A stretch of DNA of 64,000 nucleotides, taken from the NCBI RefSeq assembly GCF_036500425.1, contig NZ_DASYCB010000077.1, forward strand, positions 26,411 through 90,410. Direction: 5' to 3'. This DNA comes from Luteibacter sp. (GTDB lineage Bacteria > Pseudomonadota > Gammaproteobacteria > Xanthomonadales > Rhodanobacteraceae). Each line of letters opens with the position of its first letter. Positions within the stretch are counted from its first letter, which is position 1. A program made the translations under genes and the position numbers. Of this stretch, positions 4,129 through 56,280 are shown piece by piece. The notes under the pieces are model-generated. The model had not been told where the DNA came from, did not search any database, and was given only the letters and a program-made list of their open reading frames with translations.

Positions 4129-4188
4129 GGTGGTCGAAGCCGGTTGTCTTGAAAGGCCCTGGCACGAATGCCAGGGCGTCTGTCCTGC

Positions 4189-4497: not shown

Positions 4498-4924
4498 GGA
4501 AGTGCAGCAGGTGCATCGCGGTGTTCACGGCATCCATCATGAAACCGCTCGCCTGGCACTGGGTGCCAGCGCTGGCACCGCCGCTGCCTTCCTTGCCCAC
4601 CACGACCATCTTGGCGATCTGGGCGGCCGCACCGATCAGCACACCACCGAGCAGCGGCGGCGTCACGTCGGAAATGCGCTTGTGGGCAAAGGCGATCTGG
4701 TAGCCCGAGAAGATCACCGCCACCGTCACCACCACGATCGACGCGGCGTTGAGGATGGTGTTGAGGCCGCCGAAGAAGCCGCAGACCTTGTCCTGGGTCT
4801 GGTCCACCTGGGCAAGGGCGATCTCGGGCATGAACGCCAGGGCGATAAAGAGAAACGCCATGGTCGTCGTCAGCAGCGGGTTCTTGGTGTTGGCAATGGC
4901 TTTGCTAAGGGAGGGCAGGGACAT
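4490..4924 (-). CDS. virB2: T4SS pilin VirB2/TrbC-like
   Basis: 144 aa. Leader ending ...EIALA-QV and two hydrophobic helices (AASIVVVTVAVIFSGY, LLGGVLIGAAAQIA). Position between virB1 and virB3. Confidence 0.7.
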   Translation of the reverse strand: MSLPSLSKAIANTKNPLLTTTMAFLFIALAFMPEIALAQVDQTQDKVCGFFGGLNTILNAASIVVVTVAVIFSGYQIAFAHKRISDVTPPLLGGVLIGAAAQIAKMVVVGKEGSGGASAGTQCQASGFMMDAVNTAMHLLHFHA

Positions 4925-5053
4925 CGTGGATTCCTTCTTTCAACGTTTTCAGACAGGGTGAGGCCGGTTCCCGGCCGTGGTTAGAACGGCTGCATTTCTG
5001 CAGCCGGTGTTGCCGCGGCCTGCCCGGATCCTTCCGTGCAGGGCCTGCAATGC

Positions 5054-6232: not shown

Positions 6233-6271
6233 CTTTACAACTCCTGTCTTATGACCTGATGTTCTTGAGTG

Positions 6272-7309: not shown

Positions 7310-7316
7310 GCTTGTC

Positions 7317-32062: not shown

Positions 32063-32141
32063 TGGGCATTCCTCGATGGAGTGAATTCGGGTGGCGCGTA
32101 GCAATGCAGCTGCTTTACGCAGGTTTCTGGGCAGCAGGCAG

Positions 32142-40954: not shown

Positions 40955-41833
40955 CTAAGGTATAGACCCGTGCCCAGACACCACTGCCTCTTTTTCAGTG
41001 ATTGCTTCTGCAAGCGCCATGTTGAGCGTCAACCGATTCATGGCGTAGTGAACGGCACGATGACAATTAGGGCATATTGCAGCAACGTTTCCTGGGGCAT
41101 CAGGGCCGTCGTCGGCAAGACGATGAAGATGGTGGACTTCTAGGTAGGGGAGCCCGCCGTCACAGGTAAACGGCGCGGGGTTTTGGCAAAGTTCGCAAAT
41201 CCCACATGCGCGCAGTAACGCATATTGGCGTACTTCAGTGCTGCGTTTCCTGTACTCCGCCAATCCCATGCGTACTGCTGGGACCCTTTGGTCTTGCATG
41301 TTTAGCCGATGCTGCAATTCGGGGAGGCTGGCCTGGGTCACCTGTGTTGCAATCTCCCGGATCGCCTCCAGAGATGTGTGTTCCTCCACGCGTACGAAAT
41401 GAAATCTCAGCAGGTGATTGCCTTTGCGAGGCCCGGAGTCAGGGATGGCCGTTTCTACGGCTGCAACACTGTACGATCCTTGGAACTTAAATCGCTTTCC
41501 ATAACCACCTTGTGCTGCGATCTCCTTTGCAGTGGATTCCCGGGTTGTAAACAGAAGGACTGACCTGCTGCCCGAAGCTAATCTCGAGTTGGCTGCGTTC
41601 GAGGGGCTTTGGTCGCCACTTCCCCCTTGCCCAAAATAGAGCCAGCTACCGTCGCTTAGGGGTTCATCAAAGTAGCCTGCTTTCTTCCCGTGCCTACCGC
41701 CGGATGTGCAAATGACACATCCTGGTTCCAGCGGACCCCAGATTACGCCGGACTGAGCTTGCTTGCTTCCGACGAAATCGAGTAGGGCTTGACGGTGATA
41801 CTCCTTGCCGACAACAAAATGGTGAGAATCCAT
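40955..41833 (-). CDS. Modification-dependent (type IV-like) HNH endonuclease with N-terminal SRA/YDG-like domain
   Basis: ATG 41833 with AAGGAG 6 nt upstream. N-domain pattern VGKEYHRQALLDFVGSKQAQSGVIWGP...ICTSGG...WLYFGQGGSGDQ...AANSRLA resembles SRA (Y.G.GG..DQ...N..L). C-terminal HNH: CELC...EVHHLHRLADDG...NVAAICPNCHRAVH. Confidence 0.75.
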   Translation of the reverse strand: MDSHHFVVGKEYHRQALLDFVGSKQAQSGVIWGPLEPGCVICTSGGRHGKKAGYFDEPLSDGSWLYFGQGGSGDQSPSNAANSRLASGSRSVLLFTTRESTAKEIAAQGGYGKRFKFQGSYSVAAVETAIPDSGPRKGNHLLRFHFVRVEEHTSLEAIREIATQVTQASLPELQHRLNMQDQRVPAVRMGLAEYRKRSTEVRQYALLRACGICELCQNPAPFTCDGGLPYLEVHHLHRLADDGPDAPGNVAAICPNCHRAVHYAMNRLTLNMALAEAITEKEAVVSGHGSIP

Positions 41834-41887
41834 TTCCGACTCCTTGTTCAAACCCTTGCAGCAGTAAAATCCGCGCGCACAGGCCTG

Positions 41888-42334
41888 CTATGGACGATTG
41901 CCTTTGCTAATTGGCGATGCTTTGACTTGGATCGCAATCTTCTCTCCGACCTGTATGGCCTTTGTGGGCGTGGAGAGCTCGCATTCCCAGGCGACAAGGA
42001 CCCTCCAGCCTTGTTCCTCCAGTTGTGCTGCCACGCGTGCATCCCTCGCCACGTTCTTCTCGAACTTCTCCACCCAGAAGGCGGTGTTGCTCTTCGGCGT
42101 CGTGGCGATGCTGCATCCCGGATGCCGATGCCAGAAGCAGCCGTGGACGAATACGACCGCCTGATAGCGGGGGAACACGAGGTCCGGCTTGCCAGGGAGC
42201 ACCGTGCCATGAAGCCGGTAGCGGAGTCCCAGGCGGTGTAGCACCTTGCGGAGTGCGAGTTCGGGTCGGGTGTCCTTGCCCCGGATCCGGGACATCCGCT
42301 CTGAGCGCTCGCTAGGGGAGAGGAAGTCGACCAT
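41888..42334 (-). CDS. vsr: Very short patch repair endonuclease
   Basis: 148 aa. RSERMSRIRGKDTRPELALRKVLHRLGLRYRLH...PGKPDLVFPRYQAVVFVHGCFWHRH. Confidence 0.93.
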   Translation of the reverse strand: MVDFLSPSERSERMSRIRGKDTRPELALRKVLHRLGLRYRLHGTVLPGKPDLVFPRYQAVVFVHGCFWHRHPGCSIATTPKSNTAFWVEKFEKNVARDARVAAQLEEQGWRVLVAWECELSTPTKAIQVGEKIAIQVKASPISKGNRP

Positions 42335-42343
42335 GCAGCATCC

Positions 42344-45300
42344 CTAGGTTTCCCGGGGCCGGTCCCTTTCCAGCTCGTAGAACGGGAGGCCCCGGATCAC
42401 CTCTCCAGCGACACCCGATGTCTTGTAGAGGCAATGGTGGTTGGGCAAGGTCTTCACCCGCTCGGACAGGTCCCCAAGGTCCGACGTGAAGCCGAGGGCC
42501 CCCAGCTCCGCCGGGGTAACGTTGGGTACCTTGTGGATGAACCAGGTCAGCAACGGATCCCGGTAGTCGGTCGTGCTTGTCTTGAAGTGCCTCAGGTATT
42601 GCGAGGCCAGGACTACGCCGGTGCCGAACTCCCGTCCCTGCAGGAGTAGCTTGCGCAGTACGTCGAACTCGTAGCGCATGATGTTGTCGGCCTCGTCGAC
42701 TAGCAGGTACGAGTCGACCACCCGCAGTTGCGGGTCAGTGCCAAGGAAGGGGCGCTTGGGTGTCCTTAGCATGTTCTCGTAGAACATGTTTAGCATGATG
42801 GCAACCAGCATGTTCTTGCTTCGGTCATCCTGGCCCATCGCGTCAAGCGACACGACGACGATGCCATCGAGGAATTCGTCGAACGGCTTGGTCTTGGCAG
42901 GGTCCTTCTCGAATACCTCCATGTCCACGAGGTCGTCGATGATCGCCATCGGCGAATCGGACTTCCCACCCAGTAGCTCGCGGTACTCCGTATGGATGTC
43001 GTAGATGGTGGGTTGGCGCCCTTGCGTCGCGCACGCAACGTACGCATTCCGGACTGCTCCCTTGAGCTTGTCGCGCTGCACGGGACCGATGCCGGAATAC
43101 ACCTTGTCGAGGACGTCGGCGAAGAAACGGAACCTATCCAGCCAGGGAACCATGGATTCGCCCATCGACGAGGTATCGAATAGGTTGAGAGGCAGGTGTG
43201 CGGGCTTGACTACGCGTGCCCCGGTCGCCTCGACGAATTCGGGGCTGCTGTAGTCGCGCTTGTAGTCGAATACCAGGAACCTTGGCTTGATGCCGCGATT
43301 CTCCCGCCTTGCCGTGGCGACCTGGAATATGAGCGACTTCAGCAGCTGCGTCTTGCCGGTGCCAAGGTCGCCCACGACGCCAATGTTGAGGTGGTTGAGC
43401 CGCGTGTCCGATATATTCAGGGCGAGCGGGCGAGGCTCGAAGCCATCCACGGTCCTGCCGATGGACAGCACGATACCCGTGCTGTCCTCGCCGACCGGTG
43501 CAATCGTCGCTGCAGGCTCCGCGGGCAGGGGATGCTGGCCTCGAACGACGGGCTCCGACGCAATGTCCGCCATGCCGGGCACTGCCGAGGGCGCCCCGCC
43601 GCTCCCCTCGCTTCCCGGCGTGGCCCCGGGTGTGGATGGTTGGTATGGTTGGTCGGGCGTCGCGTCACTGCGAAGAGTGCCAGCGGCGGCGGGAGGAGGA
43701 GGCAATAGTCGCCATTCGCCGACCTTGGCGCGCACGACATCGTAGAGTCCTTGGGCATCGCCACCCACGATACGCCCGGCATCCTTGGGGGAGATGGATA
43801 TGCTCTCGTGAAAGCCGTCCCCATCGTGGTCATGCGCATCGCTTAGCGGGGATCCATCCACTACTACGAGCCGGCCATGGTCGTCTATGGTGATCTCGGG
43901 GGCAGGCCCCAGTATCGCGGCGGCGATGCGCTCGTGGTAGCCGGCCCAGCGTCCGGCCTGCTCCTTGACGAGCTCGTGCTGGCTATAGACGCGCAACCCG
44001 AACCCAACCATCGACAACAAGAGGTGCTGGTACGCGAGCTTCCAGGCCAGGGACTTGGTGGCACGTTCTTCCATCGCCTTGAGCAGCGAGGAGAGTGCCC
44101 TGGCCTGGCCAAGTGCGTCCTTGGCATCGTTCTGGCTGAGCGTGCTGCCTTGTTGCCGGCATTTCACCTCGATCGGGGTGAGGTGGATGCGAGTCGAGCC
44201 CTCGCTGACGCGGAAGCCGACGACTAGGAGGTCCGGACGCGAGAGCGACGTATCCTTGCGCTCCTTGCCGAGCGACCGGGCCAGGTCCGCAAGGTAGCCG
44301 CGGAAGGGATCGACGGGGATGATGATCGCGATGGATGCATCGCCTGGCGAACCGGACAGCACGGGGAGGATGCTGTCCAGGTTGCCGGATGTACGGAACT
44401 GGTCCTGCAGGAGCCGGACTGCGAGGAACAGGCCAAGGTCGCCGGTAGCACCGGAATCATCGCCGGAGAGGCCGCGTATCGTCGGGATGCCCCGCCGCGC
44501 TACTTCGAGCAGGACTTGCTCGATCTGGCCGTCGCCTAGCTCGCCGCAACCTGGCAGGGGGCGAAGGACTCTCCCCAGGGCATCGCGGTCGGCATCCCTT
44601 ACCTGGGATAGCAGGTAGTAGCCGCTGGTATCGCCAGCCCGGTGGGAGTAGGACGGCAAGTCGTAGTCCCATAGGTACGTGCCCCTAATCCATCCTCCCA
44701 GAAAGCAAGCTGGGTCGATGGCGGAGGATGACACCGCGACGAAGCCAGCCTTCTTATCCTCGAGCATGCTGGCGACGGCATGGACGTTGGGCGCGAACTG
44801 GAGCCCAGTCGCGTCGTCGTGCCCGCCTTCCAGAGCGCTGATACAGTGGGCCACCTTGTCCGCGAACATCTCGCCCGATGGAGCCACGGGTAGGGCTTGT
44901 CGCGACTCGCTGAGGAAGGCCCCGTGCAGTTGGCGCCTGATCCTATGCCGGATCAGGCCTCCAGTCCCCAATGGGGAACGCATGCCAACTGCAGCGGACT
45001 CGGGTTGTGCCGCGTCTAGCTGGGCAATGATGCCTAGGTCCGGCTTGGTCCCCGGCGGTTGCTTGTCGAACCAGCGGACATGGTTGCCGGTGTCCTCGGA
45101 CAGGTTCGCGATCGTGGCCTGGTCTGGACGCGACTCGGCAGGCCTGGTATCGAAGACCTCAAGTATTCTCGGGCCTACGCCTTGCCTAGGTGAAGGAGCC
45201 TCGCGATTGCCAAACCGCCTGGTGCACCAGGTCGCCAGTCCTTCGTTGCAGGCATCGGTAGCACCGCCGCCACTGGATACCACGAGGCTGACGATAGGCT

Positions 45301-47890
45301 TGGCGGCCAGAAGGTCTGAGACATCCCCGAGCGCACGTGCGACCTGAGCAGGGCTGAAGCCACTCGATATGCCTCCTACGACCAGCCCGAAGGTATTGTC
45401 GAATGGCGGTTGCCGCGACTTGTCGGCAATCTGGCCGAGGCGCGACCCGTTCCACAGCACCGACCAGTAGTCGGAATTGCACTCGACGGACAGGAAGGGG
45501 ACCGGGTCGACACCGGTCGGTCCCCCGGGGGACTGCAGGCACATGACTAGCAGGTCGGGTACGCAGTCGGGATCGAGGATACTGGCCGCAGGACAGGGTA
45601 GCGGGTCATCGCCCTCCACCGCGTCATATAGCACCCCTTGTGCGAGGCAATGCCAGGCCAGGCGCAACGGATGCAATGGGGAAAGCATGATCGCGTCGGG
45701 CACGCGTGCAAGCGTGCGGCCATCGGCTTCCCTCGGGCATACGGCGACGACGTCCACCCAGCAAGCGATATCGCGGTCGGCGGCGAGCCACGCGGTGTAC
45801 GTATCGAGGTATTTCTCCACCAAGGTGCGGAAGCCAGGGTCTCGTGCAAGCCACTTGCCGAGTGGGGCGGACTCGAGGAGGCCTGCGTGGTCGCTGGTCT
45901 CCCTTACCCGGCGGGCGATCTCCTGCCGCGCATCCACGAACCCAGGCGGGGGCACGAACAACGCGGCCTCGGGCCTCGGGTCGTGGAGGAAGCGCGCCTG
46001 TGAAAGGATCGGTCCGGCAGGCGCCTCCCAGTCCGGCGACGTCCACTTGGTCGCGTAGTCATCGGAGAGCACCAAGGGGATGAAGGACCTGCCCGCGTTC
46101 TGCTCCTCGAGCATCCATGCCTGCAGGCTGGATGAACGGGCATGGCGGTCAAGCTGCACGACGGCCTTGGTGTCGAACTTCTCAAGGTGGCGACGGTTGA
46201 GCTTGATGAGGCGCTCGAACTCGCTCCTGCATCCTTCCTCCTTGGCTTCCTCGCAGGTGACATAGACCCTGCAGGTCTCCGCGCCGCGGCCTGGCATCTG
46301 GAAGGAGACATCAAGTTGGTAGTTGCCGTCGGCTTCTATCTCTACCTGGTAGCTCCCGTCCTTGGCCGGGTGTAGCTGGAGTGGTTGCCTGGCCTCCGTG
46401 GCTTGCTCGGTCGCGTCGTCGGGTACCCCCTCTACTTGCGTGATGGCGACACCGGGCGACACGAGGAGGAGGAGCTCGTAGCGACCCGAGCCGGGAACCG
46501 AGAGCGCCGCTTCCCAATCGGCCCGGGCATTACCCTTGCGTGGCTTCTTCGGCAGCGACAGCTTGGTTGCCATCCGGGAGGTGACGACAATGCCTGGAAG
46601 CCAGCTCGCAAGCGAGATGACCCTAGCCGTGGCGCTCTTCCGCCCGATGGCGGTGATCTTGTAGCTAGCCGGGGAGCGTTGCCCGCTCGAGGGCAGCTTA
46701 TCCTGATGCGATACCGTTCCCTTGACCTGAATCGATACGGCGGTCTTGCCGTGCGATCCGCCCGTGAGGGACACCTCCACGGGGCCATCTTCCCCCGTTG
46801 GGCCGACGGACATGGAAAGCTCGACCCCCGAGCGCACGATCGCCGGCATTCCGCGGGTAACCGGGAGGATGGCGTTTGCGCAGGCGATCGAGAGGTCGCC
46901 GGCTGGCCCGTCGGGCTCCTCCGCGAGAAGTTCGGCCCAGCACTCGCTCGTCAAGGTCGACCACCATGAGGGTGGCGGCTCGAGCTCGAGGGTATCCGAT
47001 GGTAGGTAGAAGGCGGGCGCAGCGCGGTCGAAGGCCGTTGGCACGTCGCAATTCGCCTGCACGTGCGCCAGGAAGGCAGGGAGCGCCTGCTTGGACGGCT
47101 CGGTCGTGGCCACGGCTGCCAGCCGGTCGATGCTGGTCTTGAAGCCATCGGCCATCTCGTCCGCGACCTTTTCCAGGATGCCAAGCTGCGTCCTGGCGAC
47201 AACGCCGCCGTCCTGCAGGGGCGGCAGGCCGCAGGCGAGCGCCACGGCCGAACCTGGTGGCAATCCCCGTGCATCGTCGCGGATCGAGTAGATGCGCGAC
47301 AACAACCGCCACGTACCCCCACTAGGAGCTACCTCGTCGACTGCTGCTGCCGCTCGCCCGACGAGCAGCCTTGCATCGTCGAGCGAGTCCTCGCCGATGC
47401 CAGCGTCCGTGAGCCCCTGAGTGACCAGCTGCTGGATGAAACCGTCTTCCCACCATGCCTCGAACGTCGCGTGGCCGGTATTGTTGGAGGCGTTCATGCC
47501 GAACTCCTCCGTCGTCGACGCCACCGACCTGTTGCTGTGCTGCCCCGGCGGCATGAGCGCCACGAAGCTGGCCATGTTGGGATCGTTGCGGATGTGCAGG
47601 AGGTGGCTTTCGTCGCACTTGCCGGATACGCCGATGCCCGGGTTGCGACCGGCAGCGTGGCCAGGCGGGAGCTGTAGCAATACGGGCAGGACGGCCCCGG
47701 TGCTACCTGGGCCGTGCACCACGCTTATCCCACCAGGAGTGGCAAGTTCGTCGAAGACCTTCTCGAGGATCTCCAGCGGCGGCCCGTGGAAGACGAAGCG
47801 GGACTCGTGCTGGTCGCCCCCTTGCTCGCGTGCCGCGCCCTGGACCTTGTCGCGGACGATGCGGGCGAGGGTATTTATGAGTCTATTCAT
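42344..47890 (-). CDS. Giant (1848 aa) defence-type protein: large unassigned N-terminal region, PD-x18-ExK nuclease-like motif, C-terminal HerA/FtsK-like P-loop ATPase (DptH-like by architecture, unverified)
   Basis: Walker A VGDLGTGKTQ (DNA ~43346-43372). Walker B YLLVDEADN (42683-42706). RPDLLVVGF...LTPIEVKCR (44162-44236). ATGA overlap with the upstream gene at 47887-47890. Confidence 0.85.
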   Translation of the reverse strand: MNRLINTLARIVRDKVQGAAREQGGDQHESRFVFHGPPLEILEKVFDELATPGGISVVHGPGSTGAVLPVLLQLPPGHAAGRNPGIGVSGKCDESHLLHIRNDPNMASFVALMPPGQHSNRSVASTTEEFGMNASNNTGHATFEAWWEDGFIQQLVTQGLTDAGIGEDSLDDARLLVGRAAAAVDEVAPSGGTWRLLSRIYSIRDDARGLPPGSAVALACGLPPLQDGGVVARTQLGILEKVADEMADGFKTSIDRLAAVATTEPSKQALPAFLAHVQANCDVPTAFDRAAPAFYLPSDTLELEPPPSWWSTLTSECWAELLAEEPDGPAGDLSIACANAILPVTRGMPAIVRSGVELSMSVGPTGEDGPVEVSLTGGSHGKTAVSIQVKGTVSHQDKLPSSGQRSPASYKITAIGRKSATARVISLASWLPGIVVTSRMATKLSLPKKPRKGNARADWEAALSVPGSGRYELLLLVSPGVAITQVEGVPDDATEQATEARQPLQLHPAKDGSYQVEIEADGNYQLDVSFQMPGRGAETCRVYVTCEEAKEEGCRSEFERLIKLNRRHLEKFDTKAVVQLDRHARSSSLQAWMLEEQNAGRSFIPLVLSDDYATKWTSPDWEAPAGPILSQARFLHDPRPEAALFVPPPGFVDARQEIARRVRETSDHAGLLESAPLGKWLARDPGFRTLVEKYLDTYTAWLAADRDIACWVDVVAVCPREADGRTLARVPDAIMLSPLHPLRLAWHCLAQGVLYDAVEGDDPLPCPAASILDPDCVPDLLVMCLQSPGGPTGVDPVPFLSVECNSDYWSVLWNGSRLGQIADKSRQPPFDNTFGLVVGGISSGFSPAQVARALGDVSDLLAAKPIVSLVVSSGGGATDACNEGLATWCTRRFGNREAPSPRQGVGPRILEVFDTRPAESRPDQATIANLSEDTGNHVRWFDKQPPGTKPDLGIIAQLDAAQPESAAVGMRSPLGTGGLIRHRIRRQLHGAFLSESRQALPVAPSGEMFADKVAHCISALEGGHDDATGLQFAPNVHAVASMLEDKKAGFVAVSSSAIDPACFLGGWIRGTYLWDYDLPSYSHRAGDTSGYYLLSQVRDADRDALGRVLRPLPGCGELGDGQIEQVLLEVARRGIPTIRGLSGDDSGATGDLGLFLAVRLLQDQFRTSGNLDSILPVLSGSPGDASIAIIIPVDPFRGYLADLARSLGKERKDTSLSRPDLLVVGFRVSEGSTRIHLTPIEVKCRQQGSTLSQNDAKDALGQARALSSLLKAMEERATKSLAWKLAYQHLLLSMVGFGLRVYSQHELVKEQAGRWAGYHERIAAAILGPAPEITIDDHGRLVVVDGSPLSDAHDHDGDGFHESISISPKDAGRIVGGDAQGLYDVVRAKVGEWRLLPPPPAAAGTLRSDATPDQPYQPSTPGATPGSEGSGGAPSAVPGMADIASEPVVRGQHPLPAEPAATIAPVGEDSTGIVLSIGRTVDGFEPRPLALNISDTRLNHLNIGVVGDLGTGKTQLLKSLIFQVATARRENRGIKPRFLVFDYKRDYSSPEFVEATGARVVKPAHLPLNLFDTSSMGESMVPWLDRFRFFADVLDKVYSGIGPVQRDKLKGAVRNAYVACATQGRQPTIYDIHTEYRELLGGKSDSPMAIIDDLVDMEVFEKDPAKTKPFDEFLDGIVVVSLDAMGQDDRSKNMLVAIMLNMFYENMLRTPKRPFLGTDPQLRVVDSYLLVDEADNIMRYEFDVLRKLLLQGREFGTGVVLASQYLRHFKTSTTDYRDPLLTWFIHKVPNVTPAELGALGFTSDLGDLSERVKTLPNHHCLYKTSGVAGEVIRGLPFYELERDRPRET

Positions 47891-49419
47891 TCTTCCTTGT
47901 CCGTGGCCAGGTTGGCTGGGAAGGGCGGCAACAGCAGCATCCCGCTCTCGGCATCCGGGCTGTCTAGCACCAGGCCAAGCATCCTGAGCTGGTGGCCGAG
48001 GTCGTTCCGTGCAATGTCTTGCCGGTCCACGACGATCCCGTAGGAAGCCAGATGCTGGCCTAGCCTATGGATCGAGCGAGGTCCGCCCATGCCAGACAGG
48101 GCACAGTGGACGAGCGCGAGCACGGCGACTGGCCCCAGGGACACGACCCAAGGGCTGGAAGGGCTGTTGCCCTTCTTCTTGAGTACATAGCCTTGGTCGT
48201 ATCCCCTGAGCAACTGGATGGCGGTTTGGCGCTGGCCCAGGGCGTGCCGTGCGAACTCGAGCAGGTTGGCGCCTATGCCTTTCCTGCAGTTCAGCGCTCG
48301 GGCCTCCTGTTCCCGGATGTCCGCGAGCGCCGCCAGGATCCCGGCCTCCGCCAGCGCTTGCCGGTTGTCACGGATGTGCTGGCAAAGGCTGGCGATGCCC
48401 TCGCTCGAGGAAATGTCCCCGGGATAGGGGACGCTTGCATCCGACAGCGACCATAGGAGTGCATTTATCCCCAGGCGTGCCGACAAGTAGCTGGATGCCT
48501 TGTCCTTCAATCCATGCAGGGCCTTGCCGCCATAGGTCATGTACTGGGCCTTGTCCGGGAAGGCTGCCGCCCGCGTGGCATCGGTCCCGATGGGCCCACC
48601 GCCGGCGAGGGCCTCCGACAGGGATCGCCAGGTCCGTGCCTGTACGTCGCACAGCCATGTCACGTGGGCCACGGCGGCAAGCCGGAGGACTGCCTCCAGC
48701 AGGCTCGTCCATTGCCTGCGGGTCATGGCTTGCTTGGCCTGGATAAGCGCGTGCAGGTCCCTGACGAATTGCCTGGCAGGCATGAACCGGACGTTGTCGA
48801 AGTCATCGTTCGAGAGATTGGCAACCTCCGACTTGGGTACCGGTGCGAGTTGCCAGGGCGTGTGGTTCCCCCACGCAGCGGTTTCTTGCTCGAGCCAACG
48901 GGCGAAGACGTCGTCCTGCCCATCGACGCCCAGTGCAGCGAAGAGGTCTTCCCACAGGGCTTGTGCAGCCTCGTGGTCCCGGGAGCCAAGCCAGACCATG
49001 CGACGCACGAAGCTACCGGCAGGCCACGAGTTGCTGCTCAGCCGGGCCGAGCCGGAAAAGTGTGCCAGGGACGGGATCAGCGGTGTTACCTGAAGGAATC
49101 GCTTGGCGGATTGGTTGGGTAGCTTCGGGCTCTCGAGTACCCCGTGCAGGACAGCGTTCCAGTCCTCCACGCCTAGCGTTGTGCCATCCGGCGGGCGTTG
49201 TCGCTTGTCCCGCCGCTTTTGTAGCCTTTGCTCGAGGTCGCGACCGGCTTGCGGGACGCTACCTTCGCTGACGGACTCGAATCCGATGATGCGGTAGAGC
49301 GATGCCACCAGTACCTCGGAGCTTGCGTATTCCGGCGCCGGGCTTATGGCGAGCGAGGAATCCTTGTACACCCGATGGGAGTTCTTCCAGGGTGCCTGCC
49401 TGTATTCGGCCAACGTCAT
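47887..49419 (-). CDS. 510-aa protein of unknown function, middle gene of the Dcm-linked operon (DptG-like by position only)
   Basis: Long uninterrupted ORF, translationally coupled on both sides (ATGA at 49416-49419 and 47887-47890). No motif recognised by eye. Confidence 0.8.
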   Translation of the reverse strand: MTLAEYRQAPWKNSHRVYKDSSLAISPAPEYASSEVLVASLYRIIGFESVSEGSVPQAGRDLEQRLQKRRDKRQRPPDGTTLGVEDWNAVLHGVLESPKLPNQSAKRFLQVTPLIPSLAHFSGSARLSSNSWPAGSFVRRMVWLGSRDHEAAQALWEDLFAALGVDGQDDVFARWLEQETAAWGNHTPWQLAPVPKSEVANLSNDDFDNVRFMPARQFVRDLHALIQAKQAMTRRQWTSLLEAVLRLAAVAHVTWLCDVQARTWRSLSEALAGGGPIGTDATRAAAFPDKAQYMTYGGKALHGLKDKASSYLSARLGINALLWSLSDASVPYPGDISSSEGIASLCQHIRDNRQALAEAGILAALADIREQEARALNCRKGIGANLLEFARHALGQRQTAIQLLRGYDQGYVLKKKGNSPSSPWVVSLGPVAVLALVHCALSGMGGPRSIHRLGQHLASYGIVVDRQDIARNDLGHQLRMLGLVLDSPDAESGMLLLPPFPANLATDKEE

Positions 49420-51548
49420 GGTTGCTTCCCTCCCTCGATCGAGACGAAGCTGCCGTCCCAGGAACTCCCGACCTCGGTGCCATCCGCGCCTATCCTGATC
49501 CTTGCGTCCATGAGCACGTCGGGATCCCTCACGATCGGGCCGGACAACCTAGCCTTGGTCGTATCAAGCAAGGCGACGACGGTACGGGGTAGCGACGCCG
49601 GGGACAGCCCGCGCTCCAGTTCCTTGACGGCCTTGAACAGCTCGTATGTCAGGGCAATGGGCTGCAGGGATTGGCCGCTTCCCACCTCGAGGAAGCAGAT
49701 GGGGGATCGTGGCCGCCCAGCCGTAGGAAGGCGGCGCATCCTGACCTGACGGACTGGTACGACGAGGATTGTCTGCCTCTGTTGCGGCGGGAGTGGTTGC
49801 CCGAACGTGGTCGTGAGGGATACCTCGAAGTCCTGGCCATTGTTCAACAGGTTCTTTACCTGCTTGGCCACCTCGAAGAGCCGCTGGCCCTTGTCGTCGT
49901 CCTCGGCTACTTGCTGGAAGGCCTCCAATATCTGGACGTCCGCCACGACGGCGGAGCGTGTGCAGGCACTGCGCCGGACCAGCCGGCAGGCGAAGTCGCG
50001 GAGGACCCGCTGGAGGCGACTGGCCGCGGCGGGATTCCCCCGGCGGGTAGCAGGCGAGGAAAGCAAGTCGTCCGCCTTGGCCAGCTTGCGTAGCAAGTCG
50101 AGCTCGACCTTCGCCAGCACTTGGTACTTGCGGACGAAGTCGATGCCTCCCGTGATGGACCGGCTGAACCTCGTGTCCAGCTCGCCCAGTAGCACCTTGC
50201 TCCGCCCGCTGACCGCTACCTCGATGTCCGGGCTGGCCATGGCTGGGTCCAAGAGGTCCACCAGGCTTTCCAGCAGCGACGCGATCGTCGCAGGCAGGTA
50301 CGAGTCCTTGCGTTCCTGGAGGAAGTGCTGGAGTCCGAGCAGGACGCGTGCCTCGCTCGTCTCTTTGCCAAGCCCGAGGTCCTTGATGCCCTGTCGCAAC
50401 GTGCTGGCGGCTTCCGGGTCCCAGCGGTGGAAAAGCGCGTGTTGGTAGCTGGACATCGCGAGGTGGAACGGGGCGCTCAACTGCTGTCGTCGCGGATTGC
50501 TGGCCTGCTCCCCTGCCTTGTCCTGCGCTACCAGGTACGCGGCCCACTGGCATGGATCGCCTTGCTGGTCCTGCCCGGATGACTGGTTGCCCGCTAGCAA
50601 GTAGGAGACTAGGGAGAACAGGTCCCGGAAGCTCCAGCGCTTGCCACTGGCCAGCTCGTACCAGCGAAGGATTCGTAGCAATGCCGCACGGTTTTCCTCG
50701 CGGGCCAGCAGGGCCTGGCTATGGCAGAAGGGACAGTCATCGCCGGCGGGACATTCGCCTGGGCCGGGCCAATGCACGGGGCTCGTGGCGTACGCCAGGA
50801 GGGTAGAGGCAGGGCAGGGTTGCCCATCGCCTGGGCTTACCAGCAACGACTCGGCGTCCATGGGCCAGACGGCGATTTCCGGGAACCCGTCGAGCGGCCA
50901 GCATGAGGGGGCCGTGGATGAAAGACTGACGGCCCGGGTAATCGCCTCGAGCAAGTCGCGTGCTGGGCCAAGGCCGTGGTCTAGCGCATGGATCAACGCG
51001 TCGTCGAGGACACCACGGTTGACGCAGCAGAGGTAGTAGCGCTCACCGGGGCCGCCCAGCAGTGCAAGCAGTTCCTCGACCAGTAGCTCGGGGGCCGTGC
51101 GTCCTTCCTGTCCGGCCGTGGCGGACGCGTCCTGCACGATGGACAGTTCCATCGGTCGTGGCACGGAGGCAAGGCTACCCGCGTCGACATCGACGACTCT
51201 GGCGACGGCTTGTCCAGCAGGTGGGTGGAACGAGACGGACAACGTCTCCAGCAGCCTGCCCCCGGCCGCCAGCCCCTGATCCAGACAGTTGATGGTGTGC
51301 TCGATTGCCTCGGTCTTACCGTTCCCGGGGCCGCCGACAAGCAGCAGTATCCGGGGCGTGCCGGGGTTCCCGGAGGCTACTTCCCCGGCCCAGGACTCGA
51401 GCCGCGAGATCAGGTGGGTCCGCAGCAACTCCTTGCCAGGCCGGCCGCTGCCGGGGTCGAATAGGCGCTTGACCCCGCCGGAGTGGTGTCCTGCCCATCC
51501 AAGGAGGTCCTTTGGGAACCTGGGGCTTGGCCCCGGCACGTTTTCCAT
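49416..51548 (-). CDS. 710-aa P-loop NTPase with Cys cluster (DptF-like by architecture, unverified)
   Basis: Strong purine-rich RBS upstream of ATG 51548. Walker A LLLVGGPGNGKTEA (DNA ~51309-51335). ECPAGDDCPFCH cysteine cluster. Long helical C-terminal part. Confidence 0.85.
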   Translation of the reverse strand: MENVPGPSPRFPKDLLGWAGHHSGGVKRLFDPGSGRPGKELLRTHLISRLESWAGEVASGNPGTPRILLLVGGPGNGKTEAIEHTINCLDQGLAAGGRLLETLSVSFHPPAGQAVARVVDVDAGSLASVPRPMELSIVQDASATAGQEGRTAPELLVEELLALLGGPGERYYLCCVNRGVLDDALIHALDHGLGPARDLLEAITRAVSLSSTAPSCWPLDGFPEIAVWPMDAESLLVSPGDGQPCPASTLLAYATSPVHWPGPGECPAGDDCPFCHSQALLAREENRAALLRILRWYELASGKRWSFRDLFSLVSYLLAGNQSSGQDQQGDPCQWAAYLVAQDKAGEQASNPRRQQLSAPFHLAMSSYQHALFHRWDPEAASTLRQGIKDLGLGKETSEARVLLGLQHFLQERKDSYLPATIASLLESLVDLLDPAMASPDIEVAVSGRSKVLLGELDTRFSRSITGGIDFVRKYQVLAKVELDLLRKLAKADDLLSSPATRRGNPAAASRLQRVLRDFACRLVRRSACTRSAVVADVQILEAFQQVAEDDDKGQRLFEVAKQVKNLLNNGQDFEVSLTTTFGQPLPPQQRQTILVVPVRQVRMRRLPTAGRPRSPICFLEVGSGQSLQPIALTYELFKAVKELERGLSPASLPRTVVALLDTTKARLSGPIVRDPDVLMDARIRIGADGTEVGSSWDGSFVSIEGGKQP

Positions 51549-51573: not shown

Positions 51574-52917
51574 TCACAATGCCATGGCGGCTACGGGCTC
51601 TGGCCGGTTGGCCTTGCTGGCTTGCGCATGCCGTCTGGACACCTGCTCATCCAGTTCTTCGAGGACGGACGTGACGGCAAGGCCGATGGCCTCGGCGAGC
51701 AGGGGCGGGACTGCATTGCCTACCTGCGTATACCGCGGGCATTCCTTAGTGCGTAGCTTGCCGCCGGTCGTGAACTTGCCCCGGAAGCGGAACCAGTCCG
51801 GGAAGCCCTGTAGACGGGCGCTCTCCCTCACGGTGAGGATCCTGGGTTCCGAGTAGTGCAGGACATCGTCCGGCAAGGTCGTGATCGTAGGCGCCGGTTC
51901 CCAAGGTGACATTACATAGATCCGGTGCTTCTTAAGGCCGAACCTTGCGCGGTTCTTCTCGTTCATCGTGACACCTTGCGTGCATTCCTTGATGATCTTC
52001 TTGAAGCGTGCCCGGACATCGTCCCTGTGCCGGGCCAGGCGCATGCTGTCCATGGAGTCGGTGCGGCAATGCTTGTGCATCAACCGCTGGTAGTTGGTTA
52101 GTGGCCCAAGGTAGTAGGCTTCCTCGAACCCCCCTCGCGAGAAGGGGTCGGTACAAGGCTGGGTGGACGTTTGGTGGACCAGGAGGTCCGATATCGCATC
52201 CTCCGCGGAGACTGGCTTGGTCTTGGGCAGGCCATGCCTGGAAAGCATCTCGACTCGCATGGACTCGAGCGCCTCGAAGGCATGCATGACACCGCCCTCT
52301 AGCTGGGAGGCCAAGTGCTTCTGGACGCCGATGACGATCAGCCGCGAGCGGCGCTGGGGTACGCCGAAGCGGGACGCGTCAACGATCTCGCCATGGACCT
52401 CGTAGCCGATGGCCTCGAGGCTTTTCTTGAGCTTGTCGTAATACGATTCGGCTGCTTGCCCGCATGCTCCTTCTTCCCCTTGCTTGCTGGAGTGCGCGAC
52501 CTTCATTCCCGGCACGTTCTCGAGTACCAGGATGGATGGCCTAATGGTGTCTACGACCTGGACGTATCTCTCGAAGAGCTGGTTGCGTGGATCGTCCTCT
52601 CGTCGCCGACCGGCGAAGCTAAATCCCTGGCATGGAGGGCCTCCAGCAAGGACTTGGATCCCGCCTTTCAACCTGGCGAGGTCGCCATGGTGCTTGTCCA
52701 GCAGGTCATCGATGCCCCAAGCCCGTTTCTCCAGCCAGGATGGCCAGTCGAACTTATCGACGGGAACCTTGCGATCGCCGAGGAGGTTGCCGGAGAACGT
52801 ATCGAATGCCATGGGATCCCGCTCCACGGCGAACCTCCCCTGAAGCCCGGCCATGGAGAGGCCCAGCGAAAGGCCACCACAGCCTGAGAAGAGATCTACG
52901 AATTTGTACTTGGACAT
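51574..52917 (-). CDS. dcm: DNA (cytosine-5)-methyltransferase
   Basis: Motif I FVDLFSGCGG, IV GGPPCQGFSFAG, VI LVLENVPG, VIII QRRSRLIVIG, X GNAVPPLL. Start set at ATG 52917 (MSKYKF); upstream in-frame starts at 52935 and 53073 are possible. Confidence 0.93.
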   Translation of the reverse strand: MSKYKFVDLFSGCGGLSLGLSMAGLQGRFAVERDPMAFDTFSGNLLGDRKVPVDKFDWPSWLEKRAWGIDDLLDKHHGDLARLKGGIQVLAGGPPCQGFSFAGRRREDDPRNQLFERYVQVVDTIRPSILVLENVPGMKVAHSSKQGEEGACGQAAESYYDKLKKSLEAIGYEVHGEIVDASRFGVPQRRSRLIVIGVQKHLASQLEGGVMHAFEALESMRVEMLSRHGLPKTKPVSAEDAISDLLVHQTSTQPCTDPFSRGGFEEAYYLGPLTNYQRLMHKHCRTDSMDSMRLARHRDDVRARFKKIIKECTQGVTMNEKNRARFGLKKHRIYVMSPWEPAPTITTLPDDVLHYSEPRILTVRESARLQGFPDWFRFRGKFTTGGKLRTKECPRYTQVGNAVPPLLAEAIGLAVTSVLEELDEQVSRRHAQASKANRPEPVAAMAL

Positions 52918-53133
52918 GTTCTGGGCTGTTTCCATGGCTTCTGGTCGCATAACGCGTTCGGGCAGGACGCAGTCGTCACGCTGCCGCCCCGGGGCGTGGC
53001 CAGGGTCGGGGGTGTCTCGACGTGACTGGCGCATCGATCTCGCTGCGCCGGTGCCGTGGATATGCGCGTTCAATTGGGCACCCCTGCCGGGTGCCCTGGG
53101 CAGTCACCCGGGAGTGCCTTGGTTCCCATGGGA

Positions 53134-53730
53134 TCAGTCACGTGCGGACTCTCTTCCGATTGCCTGTGCCATCCAGGATGGGAACATCGCGCGCGTGGCA
53201 GTCAGTGCACGCCACTCGGGCGCTGGCAAGGAACGTCGTAGTGCTACCAGTGCCTTGCCGGCATGTGCCGGCCCCATCCAGGCCAGGGCTCTAACCGCGG
53301 CGCCTGCTGGGCTGCTACCTAGCGCCAGCATCCAATGGGGTGCGTGCTTCATGAGTACTTCCGCGCGCCCCAGTTTCAATTTTCTGGTGCGCCCGGAGGT
53401 CAGGTAGACTGACCTTGCGGGCACCTGCCTCGTCAACCCAAGGAGGTTGGCTGCATTGGCTCCATGCGGCGTGACCATCTCGCCGTTTTGCTCGGCCATC
53501 GCCTTGATGACCTTATCGGGAGCGGGCGCGCGCGTACCATGCTGGCCAGCAACAGGGGCAACGTATGTACCTCGTGCTACACGTAGTAGCTCGCCTTCCT
53601 TCGCGAGACGAGAGAAGGCCTGGTCGACTGCCGCCCGGCTTCCAAGGTGGAGGAATTCCTTGGGCGAAAGTATGCCTCCCTCCGCAAGGGACTGCGCATG
53701 CAACAGGATCGACTCTGGCAACGTTTTCAT
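53134..53730 (-). CDS. AbiEi-like / DUF6088-type putative transcriptional regulator (no AbiEii partner present)
   Basis: 198 aa. LSPKEFLHLGSRAAVDQAFSRLAKEGELLRVARGTYVAP matches the N-terminal winged-helix pattern of AbiEi-type antitoxins as I recall it. First gene of the minus-strand string. Confidence 0.6.
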   Translation of the reverse strand: MKTLPESILLHAQSLAEGGILSPKEFLHLGSRAAVDQAFSRLAKEGELLRVARGTYVAPVAGQHGTRAPAPDKVIKAMAEQNGEMVTPHGANAANLLGLTRQVPARSVYLTSGRTRKLKLGRAEVLMKHAPHWMLALGSSPAGAAVRALAWMGPAHAGKALVALRRSLPAPEWRALTATRAMFPSWMAQAIGRESARD

Positions 53731-54064: not shown

Positions 54065-54290
54065 AACGACCTCCTCGGTTACCAGAAATTATGGCTCCAA
54101 GGTGTCTACGAAAGTCTGGGCGGTCCATATCTCGTGTTGGGGCTCACCATCTATGCAGCTCGCTTGCGCAGTTCGCGGAGCGTTTTGAAGAGACGACTGG
54201 GACGTTCAGACCTCTCTTCTTCCGGGCTCTCACCGATTTAGATTGCAATACTCACCCGCTGCATCCATAAGACTTCGCAGGACACTGGCA

Positions 54291-56130: not shown

Positions 56131-56280
56131 ACGGGAGCCGCGTATATTAGCGACGACCGGGTCCCCTTGCAACAGGTTGTCTCACTTTTTTTACAAATCG
56201 CCCGCAGGGCGGTCCGTGGCCATCTGATACTCTATGGGGCTGCCGCTTGGCGCCCCACGTACTGCCCGAAGAGGATTTGC

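What the first reader, a model, noticed from the sequence alone, without database searches (positions are those of the whole stretch)
42344..47890. 1848-aa protein combines a candidate PD-(D/E)xK nuclease motif with a C-terminal HerA/FtsK-like ATPase and ~1200 aa of unassigned sequence
Read directly from the translation: RPDLLVVGFRVSEGSTRIHLTPIEVKCR (Asp ~residue 1220, Glu-x-Lys ~1241-1243; DNA 44162-44236) has the spacing and hydrophobic context of a restriction-endonuclease-fold active site. About 290 aa downstream lie Walker A VGDLGTGKTQ (DNA ~43346-43372) and Walker B YLLVDEADN (42683-42706). A nuclease coupled to a translocase-type ATPase in one polypeptide fits an effector role. The N-terminal two thirds have no motif I can name and may hold the modification-sensing part.
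Basis: seen in the sequence. Interest (0 to 1): 0.65.

Follow-up and report, generated by a model that had tools for sequence, protein, structure and literature searches.

The report
Methylation-linked DndH-like restriction motor protein
The 1848-residue protein is the large nuclease-plus-DNA-motor subunit of a three-protein restriction machine distantly related to the phosphorothioate-dependent DndFGH/SspFGH systems. Here the machine is always encoded next to a cytosine-5 DNA methyltransferase and usually the repair nuclease Vsr, a pairing I found in no paper I searched.

Summary
ORF 42344-47890(-) encodes 1848 aa with RPD(1220)…E(1241)VK(1243), Walker A (K1513) and Walker B (D1732/E1733) at the stated places.

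The C-terminal 350 aa are homologous to the solved DptH C-terminal HerA/FtsK-type domain (PDB 7ES4, E 6e-49). The PD…ExK pattern alone is expected by chance, but D1194, D1220, E1241, K1243 and Q1262 are invariant or nearly so in 158 relatives. AlphaFold places D and ExK on a β-hairpin followed by a helix. Foldseek and Pfam did not confirm a restriction-endonuclease fold.

The N-terminal 1100 aa are not featureless. They form an α/β domain, a helical domain, two β-sandwiches, a second helical region and a second α/β region. This order is weakly collinear with canonical DptH, which is already described as REase plus HerA/FtsK.

The gene is not canonical DptH. TIGR03237 does not match it and no dnd or ssp genes are present. 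In 57 of 57 loci with enough flank it sits in a cassette of C5-methyltransferase, F-like P-loop protein, G-like protein and H, with Vsr in 45 of 57.

Most likely it is the effector of a 5mC-marked, DndFGH-like restriction-modification system. I rate it a new variant of a known kind. About a third of the related clusters examined carry a RuvB-like motor instead of HerA/FtsK.

The parts
51574..53073 (-). C5 cytosine DNA methyltransferase (modification module). The true start is probably downstream of the TTG at 53073.
   Evidence: Pfam DNA_methylase 1.5e-55, TIGR00675 dcm 1e-44, PADLOC type II MTase 2.5e-79. A C5-MTase is present in 57/57 related loci with enough flank. Homologue alignments start at residues 24-81.
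49416..51548 (-). F-like subunit: 710 aa P-loop protein (Walker A GGPGNGKTE, invariant Cys cluster). Distant SspF/DptF relative.
   Evidence: PADLOC SspF models hit 9/30 and 3/30 family members (best 1.2e-6). hhalign versus DptF gives two collinear weak hits, E 0.0036 and 0.0065. Invariant residues. Overlaps the G-like gene by 4 nt.
47887..49419 (-). G-like subunit: 510 aa, no recognisable domain. Always sits between the F-like and H-like genes.
   Evidence: No Pfam, NCBIfam, PADLOC or PDB-profile hit. hhalign versus DptG E 0.49. Co-evolves with H, r=0.975. Overlaps both neighbours by 4 nt.
42344..47890 (-). H-like subunit: 1848 aa DndH-like effector (the finding).
47555..47890 (-). H aa 1-112: N-terminal α/β domain.
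   Evidence: AF2 secondary structure. hhalign 27-131 to DptH 23-122, E 0.0047.
46925..47524 (-). H aa 123-322: all-helical domain. Borderline co-variation with the MTase target-recognition region.
   Evidence: AF2. Partial r 0.23-0.25 versus a permutation 95% limit of 0.22.
46250..46894 (-). H aa 333-547: two tandem β-sandwich domains.
   Evidence: AF2. Foldseek PDB hits to tandem Ig/filamin/FN3, GH2 and transglutaminase β-sandwiches, E 4e-7 to 3e-4.
44735..46222 (-). H aa 557-1052: helical region plus a second α/β region. It occupies the position of the TRD and inactive-methylase module of DndH, but this identity is not shown.
   Evidence: AF2. Collinear hhalign 650-1307 to DptH 563-1170, E 0.011, including SPLHPLRLAW/SPFHPLNLSY. 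No [SDN]PP[YFW] motif.
43691..44533 (-). H aa 1120-1400: PD-(D/E)xK-like nuclease domain (E1129, D1194, D1220, E1241, K1243, Q1262).
   Evidence: AF2 pLDDT 80, pTM 0.82, topology α-β-β-α-β(D)-β(ExK)-α. Conservation. Aligns with the DptH DDVLFVGF…LPLEVK segment. Foldseek and Pfam negative.
44156..44239 (-). RPD…EVK motif string, aa 1218-1245.
43451..43693 (-). H aa 1400-1480: Pro/Ala/Gly-rich variable linker.
   Evidence: Mean pairwise identity 0.15-0.28. pLDDT below 50 at model residues 303-318.
42347..43423 (-). H aa 1490-1848: HerA/FtsK-type ATPase (Walker A 43346-43375, Walker B 42683-42709, R1753, Q1764).
   Evidence: PDB 7ES4 E 6e-49 and profile E 2.9e-65. PADLOC DndH 7e-68. Pfam TrwB_AAD_bind 23.5 bits versus cut-off 20.5. 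Invariant residues.
41888..42334 (-). Vsr very-short-patch repair endonuclease (repairs T:G mismatches from 5mC deamination).
   Evidence: TIGR00632 2.2e-44, Pfam Vsr 6.3e-29. Present in 45/57 related loci.
40955..41851 (-). HNH endonuclease resembling type IV methyl-directed enzymes. A loosely associated neighbour, not a core part.
   Evidence: Pfam HNH 3.1e-9, PADLOC mREase_IV 1.5e-17. Homologues lie near the cassette in 8 loci only.

Best explanation
The protein is the large 'H' subunit of a three-subunit restriction machine. The F-like P-loop protein, the G-like protein and H are translationally coupled. The machine is a distant relative of the DndFGH/SspFGH phosphorothioate-dependent restriction complexes. 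Here it is paired with a C5 cytosine methyltransferase as the self-marking enzyme and with Vsr to repair 5mC deamination damage.

Proposed mechanism:
1. The methyltransferase marks host DNA with 5mC.
2. The F-G-H complex loads on DNA through the N-terminal DNA-binding modules of H and probably through G.
3. The C-terminal HerA/FtsK-type ATPase of H, probably as a ring, translocates double-stranded DNA.
4. The PD-(D/E)xK-like domain (D1220/E1241/K1243) nicks or cuts DNA that lacks the mark.
5. Methylated sites suppress the ATPase and nuclease, as phosphorothioate sites do for DndFGH.

Shown here: gene structure, residue conservation, homology of the ATPase domain, the obligatory gene neighbourhood, and co-evolution of F, G and H.

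Inferred: nuclease activity, ring formation, and the direction of discrimination (unmethylated DNA is attacked, methylated DNA is spared).
For: Operon. MTase, F-like, G-like, H and Vsr lie on one strand with 4-nt overlaps at F/G and G/H (families).

Neighbourhood. 57/57 related loci with enough flank carry a C5-MTase, F and G, and 45/57 carry Vsr. They come from alpha-, beta- and gammaproteobacteria, Gemmatimonadota, Nitrospirota, Planctomycetota, Verrucomicrobiota, Bacteroidota and others. A 31%-identical Pseudoalteromonas relative and a RuvB-type relative keep the MTase linkage.

Co-evolution. F, G and H change together: pairwise identity correlates at r=0.98 (H with F) and 0.975 (H with G).

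ATPase. 7ES4 (DptH C-terminal domain) E 6e-49. Walker A and B, R1753 and Q1764 are invariant.

Nuclease. D1194, D1220, E1241, K1243 and Q1262 are invariant or nearly so in 158 sequences. AF2 at pLDDT 80 puts D1220 at the start and ExK within the two strands of a β-hairpin followed by a long helix. The segment aligns with DptH DDVLFVGF…LPLEVK, in the position where published work places the DndH REase. PADLOC DndH models align a remote member from the motif to the C-terminus.

F-like subunit. It matches SspF models in 9/30 members and is weakly collinear with DptF.

Precedent. The DndFGH complex has ATPase, translocase and nicking activities that are reduced on modified DNA (PMC10853773 introduction citing Wu et al. 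2022; PMC11662687 abstract). SspFGH damages unmodified DNA and is toxic without its modification genes (PMC8092258).
Against: - No fold-level confirmation of the nuclease domain. Foldseek best E is 0.33 in PDB and 0.15 in BFVD. No Pfam nuclease family matched, even at E up to 10.
- Homology of the N-terminal 1470 aa to DptH rests on weak hhalign hits (E 0.005-0.011, probability below 10%).
- TIGR03237 does not match.
- The G-like protein has no detectable similarity to DptG or SspG.
- The methyltransferase has been exchanged repeatedly relative to F-G-H (H with MTase r=0.475). No segment of F, G or H clearly tracks the MTase target-recognition region (best partial r 0.25 versus a permutation limit of 0.22). 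How sequence-specific protection would be read therefore remains open.
- No expression or functional data exist. The window comes from a soil metagenome.
Confidence: 0.72

Rival explanations
1. It is an ordinary DptH/DndH. That is, it is the phosphorothioate-dependent restriction protein, as JGI annotation of close homologues says, and it works with a dnd or ssp modification cluster elsewhere in the genome.
For: JGI names many close homologues 'DNA phosphorothioation-dependent restriction protein DptH'. PADLOC DndH models hit the C-terminus at 7e-68. 7ES4 match.
Against: NCBIfam TIGR03237, which covers the DptH-specific N-terminal 1235 aa, scores 1171 bits on a true DptH. It gives no hit at E up to 0.01 on this protein or on remote relatives. 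tblastn similarity to annotated DptH is confined to the last ~350 aa. There is no dndB/C/D/E or dptF/G similarity in the window. The neighbour is a C5-MTase in 57/57 loci, whereas true dptFGH loci lie next to dndBCDE.
Confidence: 0.04
2. F-G-H is a stand-alone counter-invader machine, as Rakesh et al. argue for DndFGH. It is triggered by invader features, not by absence of 5mC. The MTase-Vsr pair is a co-travelling module (addiction, anti-restriction or regulation) and not its self-mark.
For: The MTase is swapped relative to F-G-H (r=0.475 versus 0.98 within F-G-H). For example, L063 has an MTase 79% identical to the window's but F, G and H only 43% identical. No clear specificity region co-varies with the MTase. 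PMC10853773 proposes that DndFGH is functionally decoupled from modification.
Against: Linkage to a C5-MTase is 57/57, kept across phyla, across 30% sequence identity and across motor swapping. That is hard to explain without functional dependence. Exchange of MTases with retention of linkage is also what type I/III-like systems with separable specificity would show.
Confidence: 0.15
3. The PD…ExK segment is a structural or DNA-binding remnant, not an active nuclease. H acts only as a motor, for example by stalling replication or stripping proteins, and DNA damage, if any, comes from another protein.
For: No structural or profile match to any nuclease family. The motif pattern is common by chance. 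Southern blots showed no discrete degradation products for SspFGH (PMC8092258).
Against: Invariance of five or six polar residues typical of PD-(D/E)xK active sites over 158 sequences, while surrounding positions vary. The motif is retained in RuvB-type variants. The corresponding DndH domain is described as retaining all catalytic residues, and the DndFGH complex nicks DNA.
Confidence: 0.1
4. It is a conjugation or segregation DNA pump of the surrounding integrative conjugative element.
For: Pfam TrwB_AAD_bind hit. The window carries a TrwC relaxase and a type IV coupling protein 7-14 kb away.
Against: The element already has its own coupling protein (27985-29841, 1.1e-51). The cassette occurs in unrelated chromosomal and plasmid contexts, always with MTase, F and G. 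The best matches are DndH models, not coupling proteins.
Confidence: 0.02

Closest known systems
DndH/DptH of the DndFGH (DptFGH) phosphorothioate-dependent restriction complex (Salmonella Cerro 87, E. coli B7A; PDB 7ES4; architecture in PMC10853773)
   Same: - Size (about 1700-1850 aa) and last position in an F-G-H operon with overlapping genes.
- C-terminal HerA/FtsK-type ATPase, 34% identical to 7ES4 with the same Arg finger and Gln sensor.
- A D…EVK segment in the same relative position.
- α/β, helical and two β-sandwich domains in the same order.
- Weak collinear profile alignment over residues 27-131 and 650-1307.
   Different: - The N-terminal 1470 aa are not recognised by TIGR03237 or by BLAST.
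- Partnered with a C5-MTase and Vsr, not dndBCDE.
- The G partner is unrecognisable.
- An inactive-methylase module could not be shown.
- About a third of the examined family representatives carry a RuvB-like AAA+ motor instead of HerA/FtsK.
SspFGH (Vibrio anguillarum FF-93; PMC8092258)
   Same: A three-gene F-G-H module: F has a Walker A motif and H has an FtsK-like C-terminus. It damages unmodified DNA and is toxic without its modification genes. The F-like protein here matches PADLOC SspF models in 9/30 family members.
   Different: SspFGH is paired with SspBCD single-strand phosphorothioation. No SspG or SspH model hit G or H here. The window's own F-like protein reaches only E 0.0026.
Classical ATP-dependent restriction-modification systems (type I/III) and type II C5-MTase/Vsr cassettes
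   Same: A methyltransferase marks self DNA while an ATP-driven translocating nuclease attacks unmarked DNA. Vsr accompanying a C5-MTase is a common arrangement (established knowledge).
   Different: The motor is HerA/FtsK-type (or RuvB-like), not an SF2 helicase. There is no HsdS/Mod-like specificity subunit shared by the R and M components. The MTase is exchanged independently of the restriction genes.

Membership tests
PD-(D/E)xK (restriction-endonuclease-like) nucleases | Catalytic D … (D/E)xK residues, usually with an upstream acidic residue and often a downstream Q/E on the following helix | tested here: met
   E1129 (146/158), D1194, D1220, E1241, K1243 (157/158) and Q1262 are conserved in 158 sequences. 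The pattern alone is not significant.
PD-(D/E)xK (restriction-endonuclease-like) nucleases | αβββαβ core fold with D at the start of β2 and (D/E)xK in β3 | tested here: inconclusive
PD-(D/E)xK (restriction-endonuclease-like) nucleases | Profile match to a curated nuclease family | tested here: not met
   Pfam scan of the region from 7 diverse members at E up to 10 gave no nuclease family. Profile search against PDB sequences found only 7ES4.
HerA/FtsK-class P-loop ATPases | Walker A and Walker B | tested here: met
   GTGKT 1510-1514 and LLVDEAD 1729-1735, invariant.
HerA/FtsK-class P-loop ATPases | Arginine finger just upstream of strand 4 and a Gln sensor-1 at its end (criteria stated in PMC10853773) | tested here: met
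   R1753 (GREFG) and Q1764 (LASQ) are invariant. Both align to GREYG and LSTQ of 7ES4.
HerA/FtsK-class P-loop ATPases | Significant similarity to a solved or curated member | tested here: met
   7ES4 E 6e-49 and 2.9e-65 with the profile. Pfam TrwB_AAD_bind 23.5 bits versus cut-off 20.5. PADLOC HerA and mad8 hits.
DptH/DndH (NCBIfam TIGR03237 equivalog) | Match of the N-terminal ~1250 aa to TIGR03237 above 620 bits | tested here: not met
   No hit at E up to 0.01 for this protein or for four remote relatives. The positive control, Massilia DptH, scores 1171 bits.
DptH/DndH (NCBIfam TIGR03237 equivalog) | Eight-domain architecture: SF2 C-terminal-like domain, HTH, two β-sandwiches, TRD, inactive methylase with nested TRD, REase, HerA/FtsK (PMC10853773) | tested here: inconclusive
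   α/β, helical, two β-sandwich, helical, α/β, REase-like and HerA regions are seen in that order. Collinear weak hhalign hits, E 0.0047 and 0.011. SF2-like, TRD and methylase identities were not demonstrated, because Ig-like folds filled the 50 Foldseek hits shown.
DptH/DndH (NCBIfam TIGR03237 equivalog) | Encoded after dptF and dptG | tested here: inconclusive
   Two upstream genes of similar size with 4-nt overlaps. F-like: SspF models in 9/30 members and DptF hhalign E 0.0036/0.0065. G-like: no similarity.
DptH/DndH (NCBIfam TIGR03237 equivalog) | Association with dnd (or ssp) phosphorothioate modification genes | tested here: not met
   No DndB/C/D/E similarity in the 64-kb window. The neighbour is a C5-MTase in 57/57 loci. 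The rest of the genome is not visible. PMC10853773 argues that DndFGH is often decoupled from dnd genes anyway.
SspFGH | Matches to SspF, SspG and SspH profiles, and sspBCD nearby | tested here: not met
   Only SspF is matched, and only weakly (window protein E 0.0026; family best 1.2e-6). No SspG or SspH hit. I assumed, but did not check, that this PADLOC release holds SspG and SspH models. I did not search the window or the related loci for ssp genes; the flanking gene is a C5-MTase in 57/57 loci.
Restriction-modification system (functional class) | Obligatory linkage of a DNA methyltransferase to a nuclease-bearing component | tested here: met
   57/57 loci, also in 31%-identical and RuvB-type relatives.
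Restriction-modification system (functional class) | Methylation protects DNA from the nuclease | not testable with these tools
   Needs genetics or biochemistry.

The most novel reading that the evidence does not exclude
F-G-H restriction machines form a broad class whose self-mark and motor are both interchangeable. This branch uses 5-methylcytosine (with Vsr as the maintenance enzyme) instead of phosphorothioate. It carries either a HerA/FtsK or a RuvB-like hexameric motor on the same sensor-nuclease body. The methyltransferase is swapped without matching change in F, G or H. The complex would therefore read the presence of a modification, or the modification enzyme itself, and not a fixed recognition sequence. 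That is a self/non-self logic different from classical restriction-modification systems.
Probability: 0.4. Interest if true: 0.75.

Novelty: new variant of a known kind. Interest (0 to 1): 0.55.

Why it matters
DndFGH and SspFGH are studied as oddities tied to DNA phosphorothioation. How they tell self from non-self when only a fraction of sites are modified is still unresolved.

This branch is widespread: 310 clusters at 50% identity matched, spread over many phyla, including Pseudomonas aeruginosa and Burkholderia cenocepacia isolates. It uses an ordinary C5 methyltransferase instead, so the same question can be asked with standard methylation tools such as defined methyltransferases, bisulfite or enzymatic sequencing, and in vitro methylated substrates.

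The RuvB-for-HerA motor exchange shows that what is needed is a ring translocase, not HerA/FtsK as such.

In practice these loci are currently labelled 'ATP-binding protein', 'hypothetical protein' or, misleadingly, 'DptH'. Defence-system annotation tools may therefore miss or mislabel them.

Tried and rejected
- Foldseek of the REase-like model against PDB and BFVD found nothing significant.
- Pfam at E up to 10 on the region from seven diverse members found nothing relevant.
- Profile search of H, F-like and G-like alignments against PDB sequences found only 7ES4 for H. For F there were non-significant adenylate-kinase-type P-loop hits. For G there was nothing.
- hhalign of the G-like family against DptG found no similarity.
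- Sliding-window partial correlation, used to look for a specificity domain co-varying with the MTase or its target-recognition region, gave only borderline signals at H 151-300 and 751-810.
- Foldseek of the 1099-aa N-terminal model: all 50 hits shown were Ig-like β-sandwiches, so the α/β regions could not be typed.
- MADS (only mad8 matches, and only the ATPase), Druantia type II (DruM matches reflect generic C5-MTase similarity) and conjugative coupling proteins were considered and rejected as identities.
- Literature searches for a Dcm/Vsr-linked DndFGH- or SspFGH-like system found none. One search on MADS was uninformative.
- A sequencing-run search found only metagenomic DNA runs and no RNA.
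Full report
**Observation.** The minus-strand ORF 42344-47890 starts with ATG and encodes 1848 residues. A PD-x(10,30)-[DE]-x-K pattern appears in 54% of shuffles of this protein, so it carries no weight alone. Walker A appears in 5% of shuffles. The motifs become meaningful through conservation, described below.

**Operon.** Five genes lie head to tail on the minus strand:
- a C5 cytosine methyltransferase, 51574-53073 (Pfam DNA_methylase 1.5e-55);
- a 710-aa P-loop protein, 49416-51548;
- a 510-aa protein with no database match, 47887-49419;
- the 1848-aa protein;
- Vsr, 41888-42334 (TIGR00632 2.2e-44).

The second and third genes, and the third and fourth, each overlap by 4 nt. This is typical of translational coupling. 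An HNH gene resembling type IV methyl-directed enzymes follows at 40955-41851. The window is part of a conjugative element: TrwC relaxase at 32142-35120 and a type IV coupling protein at 27985-29841. It lies beside hisS, with AbiEi-like and PIN genes flanking the cassette. It comes from a soil metagenome.

**Relatives and neighbourhood.** Full-length homologues at 65-91% identity are numerous. They include Luteimonas, Dokdonella, Burkholderia cenocepacia, Cupriavidus, Massilia and Pseudomonas aeruginosa. Sources call them 'ATP-binding protein', 'hypothetical protein' or, at JGI, 'DptH'.

A scan of one genome per species returned 80 loci with matches down to 30% identity. They come from alpha-, beta- and gammaproteobacteria, Gemmatimonadota, Nitrospirota, Verrucomicrobiota, Planctomycetota, Bacteroidota, Acidobacteriota and Hydrogenedentota. 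Of these, 57 have at least 5.2 kb upstream and 2.5 kb downstream. All 57 carry homologues of the F-like and G-like genes and a C5-methyltransferase (51 of them upstream of F). 45 carry Vsr. Plasmid copies in Sinorhizobium and a 31%-identical copy in Pseudoalteromonas keep the methyltransferase. The unit is therefore MTase, F, G and H, usually with Vsr.

**C-terminal domain.** Residues 1496-1840 match the solved C-terminal domain of DptH (PDB 7ES4) at E 6e-49, and at E 2.9e-65 with a family profile. They also match PADLOC DndH models at up to 7e-68. Pfam TrwB_AAD_bind passes its cut-off. Walker A K1513, Walker B D1732/E1733, R1753 and Q1764 are invariant. The last two correspond to the arginine finger and Gln sensor-1 that Rakesh et al. 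use to place the DndH ATPase in the HerA/FtsK class (PMC10853773).

**Candidate nuclease.** I aligned 158 family members reaching about 26% identity in the N-terminal region. G1134, D1194, D1220, E1241 and Q1262 are invariant, K1243 is present in 157 and E1129 in 146.

AlphaFold2 on residues 1100-1420 gave pLDDT 80 and pTM 0.82. The order of elements is helix 1146-1163, strand 1184-1192, helices, strand 1221-1229 beginning right after P1219-D1220, strand 1233-1244 carrying E1241-V-K1243, and a long helix 1253-1277 carrying Q1262. This arrangement is expected of a PD-(D/E)xK core.

Foldseek nevertheless found no significant match in PDB (best E 0.33) or BFVD (best E 0.15). Seven of the top 50 BFVD hits were herpesvirus UL24/ORF20 proteins, which I recall as predicted PD-(D/E)xK enzymes, but none is significant. 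Pfam found nothing in this region even at E up to 10. I therefore treat the nuclease assignment as likely (about 0.8), with the fold unproven.

**N-terminal 1100 residues.** AlphaFold2 (pLDDT 71) predicts:
- an α/β domain, residues 1-112;
- a helical domain, 123-322;
- an all-β region, 333-547;
- a helical region, 557-710;
- a second α/β region, 714-1052.

Foldseek matched the all-β region to tandem Ig/filamin/FN3 domains and to the β-sandwich domains of a GH2 glycosidase and of transglutaminases (E 4e-7 to 3e-4). This order parallels the published DndH architecture: an inactive SF2-type domain, HTH, two β-sandwiches, TRD, an inactive methylase with a nested TRD, REase, then HerA/FtsK. I could not type the α/β regions. 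No [SDN]PP[YFW] methylase motif is present.

**Relation to DptH.** By tblastn, annotated DptH proteins share only the last ~350 residues with this protein. NCBIfam TIGR03237 models the DptH-specific N-terminal 1235 residues. It scores 1171 bits on Massilia DptH but gives no hit on this protein or on four remote relatives.

I ran a profile-profile comparison of the N-terminal 1470 residues (158 sequences) with the N-terminal 1295 residues of 44 canonical DptH. It gave two weak, collinear matches: 27-131 to 23-122 (E 0.0047) and 650-1307 to 563-1170 (E 0.011). They include SPLHPLRLAW against SPFHPLNLSY, and RPDLLV…TPIEVK…QA against DDVLFVGF…LPLEVK…QA. For one remote member (P0176), PADLOC DndH models align continuously from the nuclease motif to the C-terminus.

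I conclude that H is a distant homologue of DndH along most of its length. It is not a member of the DptH equivalog family.

**Partners.** The F-like protein has Walker A GGPGNGKTE and an invariant Cys cluster. PADLOC SspF models hit 9 of 30 and 3 of 30 family members (best 1.2e-6). hhalign against eight DptF sequences gave two collinear weak hits, E 0.0036 and 0.0065. The G-like protein matched nothing.

**Co-evolution.** Across 63 loci, pairwise identities of H correlate with those of F (r=0.98) and G (r=0.975), but only weakly with those of the methyltransferase (r=0.475). For example, L063 has an MTase 79% and a Vsr 77% identical to the window's, while F, G and H are 43% identical. The modification gene has therefore been exchanged repeatedly.

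A sliding-window partial correlation looked for a part of F, G or H that tracks the methyltransferase target-recognition region. Only borderline signals appeared, at H 151-300 and 751-810 (partial r 0.23-0.25; the permutation 95% limit of the maximum is 0.22). Where the complex reads modification remains open.

**Motor swapping.** A phmmer search with residues 281-1480 against 1.84 billion representatives found 310 clusters at E up to 1e-3. I classified the 87 full-length representatives among the best 150:
- 46 carry this HerA/FtsK type;
- 28 carry a RuvB-like AAA+ C-terminus (NCBIfam RuvB 2.7e-27; Pfam AAA and WHD_RuvB);
- 13 carry neither of these two C-terminus types by BLASTP; the three of them I scanned (P0205, P0245, P0256) have other HerA/VirB4/TraD-like domains.

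A RuvB-type member lies in the same cassette of MTase, 699-aa protein, 530-aa protein and H, and keeps PD…EVK. PMC10853773 describes capture of different HerA/FtsK clades by DndH but does not mention RuvB.

**Mechanism.** Published work reports that DndFGH has ATPase, translocase and nicking activities that are damped on phosphorothioate-modified DNA. SspFGH damages unmodified DNA and is toxic without its modification genes. By analogy, and given the obligatory methyltransferase, the most likely function is restriction of DNA lacking the 5mC mark. The C-terminal motor would translocate DNA, the PD-(D/E)xK-like domain would cut or nick it, and Vsr would limit the mutational cost of 5mC. Only the sequence, conservation, homology and context parts of this are shown here. 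The activities are inferred.

**Novelty and limits.** A family-wide pairing of an F-G-H machine with a C5 methyltransferase and Vsr, and RuvB-type variants, did not turn up in any search of the held literature. That library is incomplete, and Wu et al. 2022 itself was not readable. I rate the finding a new variant of a known kind.

The main weaknesses are:
- no fold confirmation for the nuclease domain;
- weak statistics for N-terminal homology to DptH;
- an uncharacterised G subunit;
- no functional data.

Noticed in passing
L097 7310-12553 (P0253); also P0229 and 26 further representatives: Relatives of the H protein carry a RuvB-like AAA+ ATPase in place of the HerA/FtsK domain. They keep the PD…EVK motif and the same cassette of C5-MTase, ~700-aa protein, ~530-aa protein and H. 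28 of 87 full-length 50%-cluster representatives are of this type.
   Followed up: partly
window 40955-41851 (-): An HNH endonuclease resembling type IV methyl-directed restriction enzymes (PADLOC 1.5e-17) sits directly after Vsr. Homologues at 47-53% identity lie near the cassette in L002-L004, L010, L011, L025 and L039, in varying position and orientation. A methyl-directed enzyme beside a 5mC methyltransferase would need a different target.
   Followed up: partly
63 loci (window plus L002, L007-L088): The methyltransferase has been exchanged independently of F-G-H (identity correlation 0.475 versus 0.98 within F-G-H). L063 has an MTase 79% and a Vsr 77% identical to the window's, but F, G and H only 43% identical. 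In 6 of 57 loci the MTase lies downstream of H, often on the opposite strand.
   Followed up: yes
window 27985-35120 (-): Conjugative-element genes: TrwC relaxase/helicase (32142-35120), an unassigned 325-aa ORF, an AAA_2/ClpB-like ATPase (29838-31193) and a TrwB/TraD-type coupling protein (27985-29841). The defence cassette is cargo of an integrative conjugative element that ends near hisS (56167-57669).
   Followed up: no
window 53134-53730 (-) and 54243-55421 (+): A DUF6088/AbiEi-antitoxin-like gene and a PIN_12-domain gene lie immediately upstream of the methyltransferase. They suggest a small defence or toxin-antitoxin island.
   Followed up: no
window 49416-51548 (-), F-like protein residues 216-275: Invariant cysteines C216, C266, C272 and C275 (CPFC) suggest a zinc site. 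PMC10853773 notes a Zn-chelating insert in the lid of some DndF proteins. The Walker A GGPGNGKTE gives non-significant hits to adenylate-kinase-type P-loops.
   Followed up: partly
window 52950-53073 (-): The methyltransferase ORF as listed starts at a TTG and has about 40-50 poorly conserved N-terminal residues. Homologue alignments begin at residues 24-81, so the real start is probably one of the ATGs at residues 42-53.
   Followed up: no
window 43451-43693 (-), H residues 1400-1480: A Pro/Ala/Gly-rich, poorly conserved (mean identity 0.15-0.28), low-confidence linker separates the nuclease-like domain from the ATPase. This is the junction at which motors appear to have been exchanged.
   Followed up: no
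L092 (Vibrio halioticoli plasmid) 3132-10206 and L091 (Vibrio sp. dhg plasmid) 7111-10047: The DptH-type HerA/FtsK domain also occurs at the end of shorter (about 950-980 aa) proteins in other contexts. One lies beside conjugation genes (mobI, traG). These are further examples of this ATPase domain being reused.
   Followed up: no
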